This document shows positions 32,744 through 34,650 of a stretch of 41,649 bases of DNA, in pieces; the stretch's first letter is position 1, and the number at the start of each line of letters is the position of its first letter. The position numbers and the translations under genes were made by a program. Source of the DNA: a virus (taxonomy: Duplodnaviria > Heunggongvirae > Uroviricota > Caudoviricetes); the IMG/VR virus record IMGVR_UViG_2718217885_000012, positions 1-41,649 of that record; one strand, 5' to 3'. The notes under the pieces were generated by a model that saw only the letters and a program-made list of their open reading frames with translations, was not told the DNA's origin and did no database searches.

Positions 32744-33013
32744 ATGATGAAATTCAAATTGAACGATGAAGTTAAATGGTCAAGCTCATCAAACGGTGTA
32801 ACGAAGGTAAAAATCGGGTTTATCGTCGAGGTGATTCCTCCTGGTGTCAACGTAAAAAAATTCGAACTAGGCCGTCTGCTAGATGCACCTGGCCTTCCGA
32901 GGAAAGAAGAGAGCTATATAGTTTGTGTAGGTCCAAGACCCGGATCTCGTGCCAAGCCAAAATATTACTGGCCGCGAGTTAATAACCTGCGTCACTTACA
33001 CGATGACAAATAG
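32744..33013 (+). CDS. Hypothetical protein (89 aa) immediately downstream of N
   Basis: GAGG RBS before the ATG at 32744 (the ORF-track start at 32735 is a TTG); no recognisable motif. Confidence 0.5.
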   Translation: MMKFKLNDEVKWSSSSNGVTKVKIGFIVEVIPPGVNVKKFELGRLLDAPGLPRKEESYIVCVGPRPGSRAKPKYYWPRVNNLRHLHDDK

Positions 33014-33068
33014 AAGTGAGTATCCTTGTTTTACTTTTTCGCGGCAAACCACTTATTTGAGGTGAGAT

Positions 33069-33539
33069 ATGACAAAATCATGGAGCGTACCTTTTCCTGA
33101 ATCAGAAACTGAACATGATGGAATGCCTGTTTTCTGGAGATTCCAGGCGACAGTTGAAGAAGATGGAATCAAAATATTCGCACTTCAATATATAGCTTTT
33201 CATCAGACAGAGCATTATGCATGGTTGGTTCCTGCGCATTGGATTGTTGATTTTAAACCAGCACCAAATCAGTGGTTACAGGAATGGAAACAAAGGAGAA
33301 ATAGATATGCAATTAAGAAAGTAGCAAAAAATGCAGAAAGATCTTTTGCATTCCCAACGAAGAAACTTGCCATTGAGAGTTTATTGCGCCGGAAGAAATA
33401 CCATTTAATGAGAATCAAACAAGATTTGGCTGTTGTATCAACGCTTGTTGATGGGATGAAGAATATTGATACATCAACACCAGATATTGAATATAACTTT
33501 GGACACAACCAAGAAACAGAAAATTGGGTATTTTATTAG
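33069..33539 (+). CDS. Hypothetical protein (156 aa), AT-rich, at the ral/sieB position
   Basis: GAGGTGAGAT RBS before the ATG; coding sequence visibly AT-rich compared with neighbours; no recognisable motif. Confidence 0.55.
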   Translation: MTKSWSVPFPESETEHDGMPVFWRFQATVEEDGIKIFALQYIAFHQTEHYAWLVPAHWIVDFKPAPNQWLQEWKQRRNRYAIKKVAKNAERSFAFPTKKLAIESLLRRKKYHLMRIKQDLAVVSTLVDGMKNIDTSTPDIEYNFGHNQETENWVFY

Positions 33540-33643
33540 TACGAATAAGCACTGTGTATTCATTCCAACGAGTGAATACACGGAGCAATGTCGCTCGTAA
33601 CTAAACAGGAGCCGACTTGTTCTGATTATTGGAAATCTTCTTT

Positions 33644-33670
33644 GCCCTCCAGTGTGAGGGCGTTTTTTTG
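33644..33670 (+). terminator. Intrinsic terminator (tL1-like) in the PL operon
   Basis: Hairpin GCCCTCC-AGTG-TGAGGGC followed by TTTTTTT. Confidence 0.7.
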
Positions 33671-33681
33671 ATGGAGGATAT

Positions 33682-34650
33682 ATGAGTGAAGTAACAGATT
33701 TAGTTGTTATTGAAAAAGCAAATGCAATGACTGTATTTCAGTCTGCCGACCAGATTGAAGAAATCCTTCAAAAGGTTGAACGCGAAGTTATGTCCTTTGT
33801 GCCTGATATCACAACGGCAAAGGGCAGAAAGGAGATCGCTTCTCTGGCGTATAAAGTTGCGCAGACGAAAACATATCTCGATGGTCTTGGCAAAGACCTT
33901 GTTGCTGAACTGAAGGAAATTCCAAAGCTAATTGATGCCAACCGCAAGACAGTGCGTGATCGCCTTGATGAGCTGAAAGCCAAGGCACGCCAGCCTCTTA
34001 CTGATTATGAGGAAGAACAGGCGCGGATTAAAGCTGAAGAAGAAGCTAAGGCAGCAGCTGAAGCTCTCGCAAAGCAAATTGAGTCTGACCATGAAATAGC
34101 GATTTTGATGGATCGCGAATTTGACCGCCAAAGAGAAGAGGCAAGACTCAAAGCGGAGCAGGAAAAGCGAGAGCATGAAGAACGCTTAAAAAGAGAAGCT
34201 GAAGAGAAAGCCAGAGCAGAAGCCGAAGCAAAGGCAAAAGCCGAAATTGAAGCAGCAGCAAGGCGAGAAGCAGAAGCTAAGGCCGCAGCGGAACGTGCAG
34301 AGCGTGAACGCATTGAAGCCGAGCAACGAGCACAGCGCGAAGCAAAAGAGGCAGCAGAACGAGCTGAAAGAGAAAAGCAGGCGGCAATTGAAGCAGAACG
34401 CCGAAAAGCACAGGAGGAGGCTGAACGAATCAGGCGCGAGGCTGAAGCAAAAGAGCAAGCCAGAATAGCAGAAGAAAAAAGAATCAAGGAAGAAGAAGAG
34501 CGTAGAGCAAAGGATAAAGCTCACCGGAAAGAAGTAAATAACAAAATACTTGCTGACCTTATCAAGGTTGGCGCATCAGAAGATGTTGCTAAAAATATCA
34601 TAACAGCCATCGTAAAAGGCGAAGTATTCGCAACAAAAATAACCTACTAA
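33682..34650 (+). CDS. Hypothetical protein with long charged E/R/K/A-rich helical central region
   Basis: GGAGGA RBS; globular N-terminal ~110 aa, ~170 aa of EAEAKAKAE/RREAE-type repeats, conserved-looking C-terminal ~40 aa. Confidence 0.6.
   Translation: MSEVTDLVVIEKANAMTVFQSADQIEEILQKVEREVMSFVPDITTAKGRKEIASLAYKVAQTKTYLDGLGKDLVAELKEIPKLIDANRKTVRDRLDELKAKARQPLTDYEEEQARIKAEEEAKAAAEALAKQIESDHEIAILMDREFDRQREEARLKAEQEKREHEERLKREAEEKARAEAEAKAKAEIEAAARREAEAKAAAERAERERIEAEQRAQREAKEAAERAEREKQAAIEAERRKAQEEAERIRREAEAKEQARIAEEKRIKEEEERRAKDKAHRKEVNNKILADLIKVGASEDVAKNIITAIVKGEVFATKITY

What the first reader, a model, noticed from the sequence alone, without database searches (positions are those of the whole stretch)
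32744..33539. Two unrecognised genes immediately downstream of N at the ral/sieB position
After N, where lambda carries ral and sieB, there are an 89-aa ORF and a 156-aa ORF with good RBSs and no motifs I recognise. The 156-aa gene is visibly AT-rich and is followed by a perfect 9-bp inverted repeat (33554-33581) and then an intrinsic terminator (33644-33670), so the pair looks like a discrete N-dependent cassette. This position is a known hotspot for anti-restriction and abortive-infection genes.
Basis: partly seen in the sequence, partly recalled or inferred. Interest (0 to 1): 0.6.

Follow-up and report, generated by a model that had tools for sequence, protein, structure and literature searches.

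The report
Two uncharacterised early genes beside N
Two real but uncharacterised accessory genes fill the swap-prone slots where phage lambda carries sieB and ral, and the hairpin and terminator after them are lambda's already described PreS small RNA, so the finding is a sound but fairly ordinary lead.

Summary
Both ORFs are real genes. Synonymous sites are saturated while amino-acid changes stay low, and dN/dS is 0.05-0.24 for close pairs.

Neither protein resembles Ral, SieB, P22 gp17, or any Pfam, NCBIfam or PADLOC family.

ORF156 is 933W L0079. It occurs in 562 of 5426 complete E. coli genomes and belongs to a wide, unnamed temperate-phage family. Its fold is unresolved.

The two genes are not an obligate pair. 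ORF156 usually occurs without ORF89, and ORF89 also occurs next to ral.

ORF156 lies between a 27-nt linker that precedes orf28-ral in lambda and the lambda ral-ea10 intergenic block, so it is a positional allele of orf28-ral. ORF89 fills the sieB slot.

The inverted repeat and terminator are conserved lambdoid backbone. They are the hairpin 5' of the Hfq-dependent sRNA PreS/LPR1 (33583-33670) and its tL2a terminator.

No intrinsic terminator separates N from the pair, so N-dependence is doubtful. Function is unknown; my best guess is lytic-cycle host-takeover or counter-defence binding proteins.

The parts
32265..32295 (+). nutL: boxA CGCTCTTA (32265-32272) and boxB GCCCTGAAGAAGGGC (32281-32295). 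It lies downstream of a PL region with three 434-type operators (32153-32220).
   Evidence: Read directly from the sequence. The boxB hairpin was picked up, and the ACAA-N6-TTGT operators. Identity with lambda nutL is from my own knowledge of the lambda sequence.
32406..32738 (+). N antiterminator, 110 aa, with a lambda-type arginine-rich N terminus. Its last ~87 nt travel with the ORF89 module in other prophages.
   Evidence: Pfam N36 E 1.6e-26 and phrog_271. Homology with L004 starts at window 32652.
32747..33013 (+). ORF89 (88 aa from ATG 32747, or 89 aa from ATG 32744). Basic (pI 9.9), soluble small beta-barrel protein of family phrog_11941. It occupies the slot where lambda has sieB.
33042..33068 (+). 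Conserved ~27-nt linker carrying the ribosome-binding site (AACCACTTATTTGAGGTGAGAT, immediately before the ATG). The same linker precedes ORF156 in PA28 and Dewey, and precedes orf28-ral in lambda and NCTC9112. I read it as a module-exchange junction.
   Evidence: Alignment. The 33-nt matches 33036-33068 appear (H74-H80).
33069..33539 (+). ORF156. Soluble 18.6-kDa protein, AT-rich gene, family phrog_1636 (equals 933W L0079). It is a positional allele of lambda orf28-ral.
33554..33581 (+). Perfect 9-bp inverted repeat with a 10-nt loop. It is identical in lambda and ends one base before the PreS/LPR1 +1 position.
33583..33670 (+). Homologue of the lambda Hfq-dependent sRNA PreS (LPR1), about 88 nt, beginning GAGCAATGTCGC. 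It includes an identical seed region (~33618-33635) and the tL2a intrinsic terminator (33643-33670).
   Evidence: Near-identity to the lambda ral-ea10 intergenic region. Terminator scans. Literature: bioRxiv 10.1101/2024.10.31.621285 and PMC12197685.

Best explanation
Shown. ORF89 and ORF156 are two independent, real protein-coding accessory genes. They fill two adjacent exchange slots at the promoter-proximal end of the lambdoid early-left (PL) operon. Slot A runs from the 3' end of N to a conserved 27-nt linker; it holds sieB in lambda and ORF89 here. Slot B runs from that linker to the conserved PreS sRNA/tL2a block; it holds orf28-ral in lambda and ORF156 here. The inverted repeat and terminator after ORF156 are not part of the genes. 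They are the conserved hairpin just 5' of the PreS/LPR1 sRNA, and its tL2a terminator.

Inferred. Both genes are transcribed from PL together with N, before the first recognisable intrinsic terminator. They would therefore be made early in lytic growth or after induction, and not in the repressed prophage. Both proteins are small, soluble and cytoplasmic, with no catalytic motifs. ORF89 is a basic Tudor/SH3/KOW-like beta-barrel. ORF156 is a Trp-rich beta region followed by a long basic helix. They most likely act by binding a host macromolecule. Given their position, where ORF156 is a positional allele of the anti-restriction gene ral, the likeliest role is host takeover or counter-defence rather than an essential phage function.
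For: Real genes:
- dN/dS is 0.07 for ORF89 (window vs L015) and 0.05-0.24 for ORF156.
- Distant pairs have pS 0.74-0.91 against pN 0.15-0.32.
- There are 31 and 33 homologues respectively, with conserved motifs.

Independence.

Slot boundaries:
- The PreS block is in 2237 genomes, ORF156 in 562 and orf28-ral in 786, out of 5426.

PreS/tL2a identity.

Expression from PL:
- No + strand promoter-like site and no terminator-like site were found between nutL and 33643.
- N's stop codon overlaps the ORF89 ribosome-binding site.

Protein properties:
- Both are soluble, with no hydrophobic stretch (maximum KD19 1.16 and 0.56).
- No PADLOC defence model matched.

Context of relatives: homologues of both families always sit in the early-left, recombination or int region of temperate phages.
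Against: - There is no functional evidence of any kind. Position is a weak predictor of function.
- ORF89 often coexists with ral, so it is not simply a ral substitute.
- The promoter scan is a crude consensus search that did not even flag PL, so an internal promoter active in lysogens is not excluded.
- Rho-dependent termination between N and the pair cannot be assessed.
Confidence: 0.55

Rival explanations
1. One or both genes are phage-internal regulatory or nucleic-acid-binding accessory factors. For example, ORF89 might be a KOW/Tudor-like factor acting on RNA polymerase or the N antitermination complex. ORF156 might modulate DNA recombination or replication. In this reading they are not directed at host defences.
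For: - ORF89 is basic (pI 9.9) and has an invariant aromatic and basic motif, AKPKYYWPR.
- It lies directly after N in most contexts and appears translationally coupled to it.
- Fold matches include the NusG KOW domain and ribosomal protein L19.
- Distant ORF156 relatives sit among RecT, YqaJ, RdgC, Dam and int genes.
Against: - ORF89 occurs beside three unrelated N types, and is sometimes separated from N by one to three genes.
- Most lambdoid phages lack both genes, so neither is part of the core regulatory circuit.
- The fold matches are generic small beta-barrels.
Confidence: 0.25
2. The genes are prophage-encoded defence genes (superinfection exclusion or abortive infection), like sieB or rexAB. 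They would be expressed in the lysogen to block other phages.
For: ORF89 occupies the slot that holds sieB in lambda. AT-rich, moron-like composition of ORF156 is typical of lysogenic-conversion genes.
Against: - Both genes point downstream from PL, which the repressor shuts off. Lambda sieB, by contrast, is on the opposite strand.
- No promoter-like site was found upstream.
- Neither protein has membrane segments.
- Neither matches a PADLOC model.
- Neither is similar to SieB or gp17.
Confidence: 0.12
3. The ORFs are chance or decaying reading frames in a non-coding or recombination-scarred spacer.
For: - PGAP does not call ORF89 in the four RefSeq E. coli loci inspected.
- ORF156 was left unannotated in the H-19B GenBank record.
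- ORF89 has no match in 50,697 phage genomes.
Against: - Both are under strong purifying selection.
- ORF89 is intact in every locus examined.
- The ORF89 fold prediction is confident from only 25 sequences.
- Both match PHROG families at E 6e-46 and 7e-112.
Confidence: 0.03

Closest known systems
Lambda Ral (anti-restriction, PF11058) with orf28
   Same: ORF156 occupies exactly the same interval, between the same 27-nt ribosome-binding-site linker and the same PreS/tL2a block, in the same orientation and operon. It is the other common occupant of that slot in E. coli prophages: 562 genomes for ORF156 against 786 for orf28-ral.
   Different: There is no sequence or profile similarity. ORF156 is 156 aa against Ral's 66 aa. 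No functional data exist.
Lambda/P22 SieB superinfection exclusion protein
   Same: ORF89 lies in the interval directly after N that holds sieB in lambda.
   Different: ORF89 is on the opposite strand to sieB, has no hydrophobic segments and shows no similarity. It is 88 aa and forms a soluble beta-barrel.
PreS (LPR1) Hfq-dependent sRNA / tL2a terminator of lambda (bioRxiv 10.1101/2024.10.31.621285)
   Same: Window 33549-33662 is essentially identical to lambda. That includes the published 5' end GAGCAATGTCGC, the seed region and the terminator hairpin.
   Different: The upstream gene is ORF156 instead of ral. The downstream gene is a 322-aa charged coiled-coil ORF instead of ea10. The T-tract flank differs by a few bases.
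Tudor / SH3 / KOW small beta-barrel domains (e.g. PHF19 Tudor 6wau, R67 DHFR 1vie, NusG KOW 1m1g)
   Different: Sequence identity is 9-22%, and no sequence-level relation was found to any solved chain. ORF89 has a family-specific conserved C-terminal motif, PRKEESYIVCVGPKPGSRAKPKYYWPR.
PHROG families phrog_1636, 13631, 25384, 28215 and phrog_11941
   Same: ORF156 matches phrog_1636 end to end (E 7e-112). ORF89 matches phrog_11941 (E 6e-46).
   Different: All of these families are listed as 'unknown function', so membership gives no mechanism.

Membership tests
Ral anti-restriction family (PF11058) | Sequence or profile similarity to Ral | tested here: not met
   No Pfam hit at E<=1 for either ORF. 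BLASTP of ORF89 against lambda Ral gave no alignment. hhalign of A1 against Ral gave probability 0.4%.
Ral anti-restriction family (PF11058) | Alleviation of type I restriction or enhancement of modification | not testable with these tools
   Needs plating of unmodified phage on EcoKI/EcoBI hosts with and without the gene.
SieB superinfection exclusion | Sequence similarity to SieB | tested here: not met
   BLASTP E 0.2 over 14 residues. hhalign of A3 against SieB gave probability 0.5%. No Pfam hit.
SieB superinfection exclusion | Membrane-associated protein expressed in the lysogen (own promoter, opposite strand to PL) | tested here: not met
   Maximum 19-residue hydropathy is 1.16 and 0.56. 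Both ORFs are co-oriented with PL, and no promoter-like site was found.
P22 gp17 | Sequence similarity to gp17. The first database pass suggested this because neighbouring annotations say 'gp17 / superinfection exclusion'. | tested here: not met
   gp17 is the next gene after ORF156 in H-19B and PA28. BLASTP of ORF156 against that gp17 gave E 22.
PreS/LPR1 sRNA with tL2a | Sequence identity to the lambda ral-ea10 intergenic sRNA, including its 5' end and seed | tested here: met
   Alignment. The published primers give the 5' end and seed boundaries.
PreS/LPR1 sRNA with tL2a | GC-rich hairpin plus U-tail at the 3' end | tested here: met
   Hairpin at 33643-33662 followed by T7. The same hairpin is in lambda at 33,931-33,952.
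PreS/LPR1 sRNA with tL2a | Hfq binding, lytic-cycle expression and dnaN up-regulation | not testable with these tools
   Shown for lambda only.
Tudor/SH3-like small beta-barrel fold (ORF89) | Five-stranded small barrel superposable on known members | tested here: met
Tudor/SH3-like small beta-barrel fold (ORF89) | A specific ligand site (aromatic cage, nucleic-acid surface or R67-type pore) | not tested
   No residue-level comparison was made. The conserved aromatics W12, Y58, Y74, Y75 and W76 are noted only.
Known anti-phage defence systems (PADLOC-DB 2.0) | Match to any defence-protein model | tested here: not met
   Only noise hits, at E 0.018 and above.
phrog_1636 (ORF156) and phrog_11941 (ORF89) | Full-length profile match | tested here: met
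   E 7.2e-112 over 1-156 of 156, and E 6.3e-46 over 1-87 of 88.

The most novel reading that the evidence does not exclude
ORF156 may define a new, widespread counter-defence or host-takeover protein family. That family would include 933W L0079 and the linked families phrog_1636, 13631 and 25384. It would substitute for Ral in about a quarter of PreS-bearing E. coli prophages, including Shiga-toxin phages. ORF89 would be a second, rarer effector that current genome annotation misses.
Probability: 0.3. Interest if true: 0.6.

Novelty: new member of a known kind. Interest (0 to 1): 0.3.

Why it matters
ORF156 is carried by about 10% of complete E. coli genomes and by the Stx phages 933W and H-19B, yet it has no name, Pfam family or structure. 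I show that it is a positional allele of the anti-restriction gene ral, framed by two conserved junctions. That makes it a well-defined candidate for anti-defence screens.

ORF89 is an example of a conserved small gene that PGAP left uncalled in all four RefSeq loci inspected.

The work also shows that the PreS sRNA block is a fixed anchor beside a variable slot. That anchor gives a simple way to catalogue every occupant of this hotspot across genomes.

Beyond that, unknown small genes in the PL operon are expected, so the finding is not surprising to a specialist.

Tried and rejected
Family libraries. Pfam, NCBIfam and PADLOC scans of both proteins returned nothing. PHROGs returned only families of unknown function.

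Solved structures, by sequence. Profiles A1, A2 and A3 gave only noise at E 0.2 or above.

Deep profile search for ORF156. It found about 100 relatives, all without a name or Pfam domain. The two long multi-hit proteins, P0084 and P0135, are low-complexity artefacts.

Structure.
- The ORF89 search against viral models gave no hit at E<=0.001.
- The afdb50 library was unavailable.

Rfam. No family matched in 31900-34000. PreS is not in Rfam and was identified through the literature instead.

'gp17 / superinfection exclusion' label. This label in the first BLAST table belongs to the neighbouring gene, not to ORF156.

Literature. Searches for L0079, WP_000167585 and peptide strings found nothing, including the supplements of an accessory-gene screen.

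Other searches that led nowhere.
- The genome-contig scan for ORF89 returned only one locus.
- A search for the lambda tL1/tL2 map was uninformative.

Full report
**Setting.** The window is a lambdoid phage or prophage whose early-left operon lies on the + strand.
- A LexA-type repressor is at 31069-31701. It is flanked by 434-type operators (ACAA-N6-TTGT) at 30979-31014 and 32153-32220. There are 6 matches against 1.1 expected by chance.
- Lambda-type nutL follows (boxA 32265-32272, boxB 32281-32295).
- N is at 32406-32738 (Pfam N36, E 1.6e-26).
- The best-matching sequenced phages, Sf101 and IME10, cover only 46-54% of the right half of the window.

**Observation.**
- ORF89 ends at 33013. 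ATG 32744 gives 89 aa. ATG 32747 gives 88 aa and is better spaced from the GAGG that overlaps N's stop codon. It also matches the MKFK/MNFK starts of homologues.
- ORF156 is at 33069-33539, behind GAGGTGA.
- ORF156 has GC 36.5% and GC3 28.7%, against 51% in N.
- The perfect 9-bp inverted repeat is at 33554-33562 and 33573-33581.
- The terminator hairpin at 33643-33662 plus T7 is detected.

**Are they genes?** Yes.
- ORF89 has 31 homologues at 56-94% identity in E. coli, Cronobacter, Pluralibacter and other Enterobacterales. They share an almost invariant C-terminal block, PRKEESYIVCVGPKPGSRAKPKYYWPR.
- ORF156 has 33 close homologues at 55-99% identity in Escherichia, Pectobacterium, Brenneria, Rosenbergiella and Cronobacter.
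- In codon alignments, synonymous sites are saturated (pS 0.74-0.91) while pN is 0.15-0.32. For close pairs, dN/dS is 0.07 for ORF89 and 0.05-0.24 for ORF156.

**What are the proteins?**
- Neither matches Pfam, NCBIfam or PADLOC. Their PHROG families (phrog_11941; phrog_1636) have unknown function.
- Neither resembles lambda Ral, lambda SieB or the P22-type gp17 of Stx phages, by BLASTP or by profile comparison. The 'gp17 / superinfection exclusion' label seen in early hits belongs to the next gene.
- Both are soluble with no hydrophobic segment. ORF89 has pI 9.9 and ORF156 pI 8.8.
- A profile search of 1.8 billion representatives links ORF156 to about 100 proteins of 130-160 aa. They share the pattern [FY]Y[RK]...G...ET...C then K..IKRI.K..SRFAF.TKE.A...L..RK..Q..HLKR. 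None has a name or a Pfam domain. They fall in phrog_13631, 25384 and 28215.
- Where context is available, these relatives lie in the early-left, recombination or integrase region of temperate phages. One is an isolated gene among tail genes.

**Are they a pair?** No.
- ORF156 is in Stx phages 933W (L0079), H-19B (unannotated) and PA28, in the BASEL phages Dewey and Huey, and in 562 of 5426 complete E. coli genomes. It is nearly always without ORF89.
- The ORF89 DNA covers at least 80% of the query in only 31 genomes. It has no DNA or protein match in 50,697 phage records.
- ORF89 is followed by ORF156 in one set of prophages, by ral in others (NCTC9112, MS 21-1, Cronobacter), and by other small genes elsewhere. 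It lies beside at least three different N types.
- PGAP left the intact ORF89 unannotated in all four RefSeq loci inspected.

**Anatomy of the slot.**
- The ~27 nt before the ORF156 start (AACCACTTATTTGAGGTGAGAT-ATG) also precede ORF156 in PA28 and Dewey. In lambda and NCTC9112 they precede orf28-ral.
- Downstream, window 33549-33662 is essentially identical to lambda's ral-ea10 intergenic region.
- That block occurs in 2237 of 5426 E. coli genomes, four times as many as ORF156, in stretches with no annotation.
- ORF156 therefore exactly replaces orf28-ral between two conserved junctions. orf28-ral itself is in 786 genomes.
- ORF89 replaces the oppositely oriented sieB between the N 3' end and the linker.
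- Other prophages carry still other genes upstream of the block. This confirms a variable hotspot with fixed borders.

**The inverted repeat and terminator.**
- The literature identifies the lambda ral-ea10 intergenic region as the Hfq-dependent sRNA LPR1/PreS. It is about 88 nt, processed to about 68 nt, and its 3' end is terminator tL2a. It is made in the lytic cycle, activates host dnaN translation and represses alaS. It was reported in 2,537 genomes (bioRxiv 10.1101/2024.10.31.621285; review PMC12197685).
- The authors' cloning and T7 primers start at GAGCAATGTCGC, and their full-deletion primer ends at ...GAATACACG. This places the PreS +1 position at window 33583, directly after the right arm of the inverted repeat. 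The 3' end falls at the T-tract near 33670.
- The seed region is identical here.
- The 136-nt stretch folds far better than shuffled controls (-48.2 kcal/mol, z -4.65).
- Rfam has no model for it.

**Expression (inferred).**
- Between nutL and 33643 the scan finds no intrinsic terminator and no + strand promoter.
- N's stop overlaps the ORF89 Shine-Dalgarno sequence, and only 55 nt separate ORF89 from ORF156.
- The pair is thus most simply co-transcribed with N from PL and ends at PreS/tL2a. N would be needed to read beyond that point, not to reach the pair. This contradicts 'N-dependent', although Rho-dependent termination cannot be excluded.
- Because PL is repressed in lysogens, a lytic-cycle role is more likely than prophage-expressed exclusion.

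**Function.** It is unknown.
- I commit, with modest confidence, to small binder proteins made early for host takeover or counter-defence. ORF156 would be an alternative to Ral.
- The rivals are phage-internal nucleic-acid or RNA-polymerase-binding accessory factors (0.25), prophage defence genes (0.12) and spurious ORFs (0.03).

**Verdict.** The cassette and N-dependence reading does not hold, and part of the finding (PreS/tL2a) is already known. The two genes are real, uncharacterised members of catalogued families of unknown function, sitting in a known variable region. Interest is modest at 0.3.

Noticed in passing
window 33583-33670 (with the hairpin at 33554-33581): A homologue of lambda's Hfq-dependent sRNA PreS/LPR1 with the tL2a terminator. 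It is identical to lambda through the seed, sits in 2237 of 5426 E. coli genomes and is not represented in Rfam. The perfect inverted repeat ends one base before the published PreS 5' end, so it may mark or create that end.
   Followed up: yes
window 33042-33068: A 27-nt linker carrying a ribosome-binding site. Unrelated downstream genes (ORF156, or lambda orf28-ral) share it in different phages, so it looks like a recombination junction for module exchange.
   Followed up: partly
window 32747-33013; L004 4096-4359, L005 2513-2770, L006 and L007 2513-2776: The intact, conserved ORF89 is not annotated by PGAP in any of the four RefSeq E. coli genomes inspected. The family has no tblastn hit in 50,697 sequenced phage genomes, so it seems confined to prophages.
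   Followed up: partly
window 31698-32102: A 134-aa ORF at the rexAB position. Its ATG overlaps the cI stop codon (ATGA), and it has an N-terminal signal-peptide-like segment ([20 protein letters not shown]). It matches phrog_2651 (unknown function). It is probably co-transcribed with the repressor in lysogens, which makes it a candidate exported lysogenic-conversion or exclusion protein.
   Followed up: no
window 33682-34650: A 322-aa, highly charged, Ala/Glu/Lys-rich coiled-coil ORF (phrog_1376) that PGAP labels 'cell envelope biogenesis protein TolA'. It sits where lambda has ea10, directly after PreS, and is common in E. coli prophages. The TolA NCBIfam model does not really match (E 0.97).
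   Followed up: no
window 30979-31014 and 32153-32220: Five ACAA-N6-TTGT operators flank the repressor gene, so the immunity region is 434-type while N and nutL are lambda-type.
   Followed up: partly
L002 2526-2993 (H-19B, AF034975): ORF156 is intact (98.7% identical) but unannotated in the original H-19B GenBank record, between N and gene 17.
   Followed up: yes
L014 3337-3963; L017 2167-3090: Related prophages carry an Nmad5-domain protein between N and the ORF89 homologue. They also carry a BstA_C-domain (abortive infection) protein at the rex position. This illustrates how much defence-related cargo surrounds this region.
   Followed up: no
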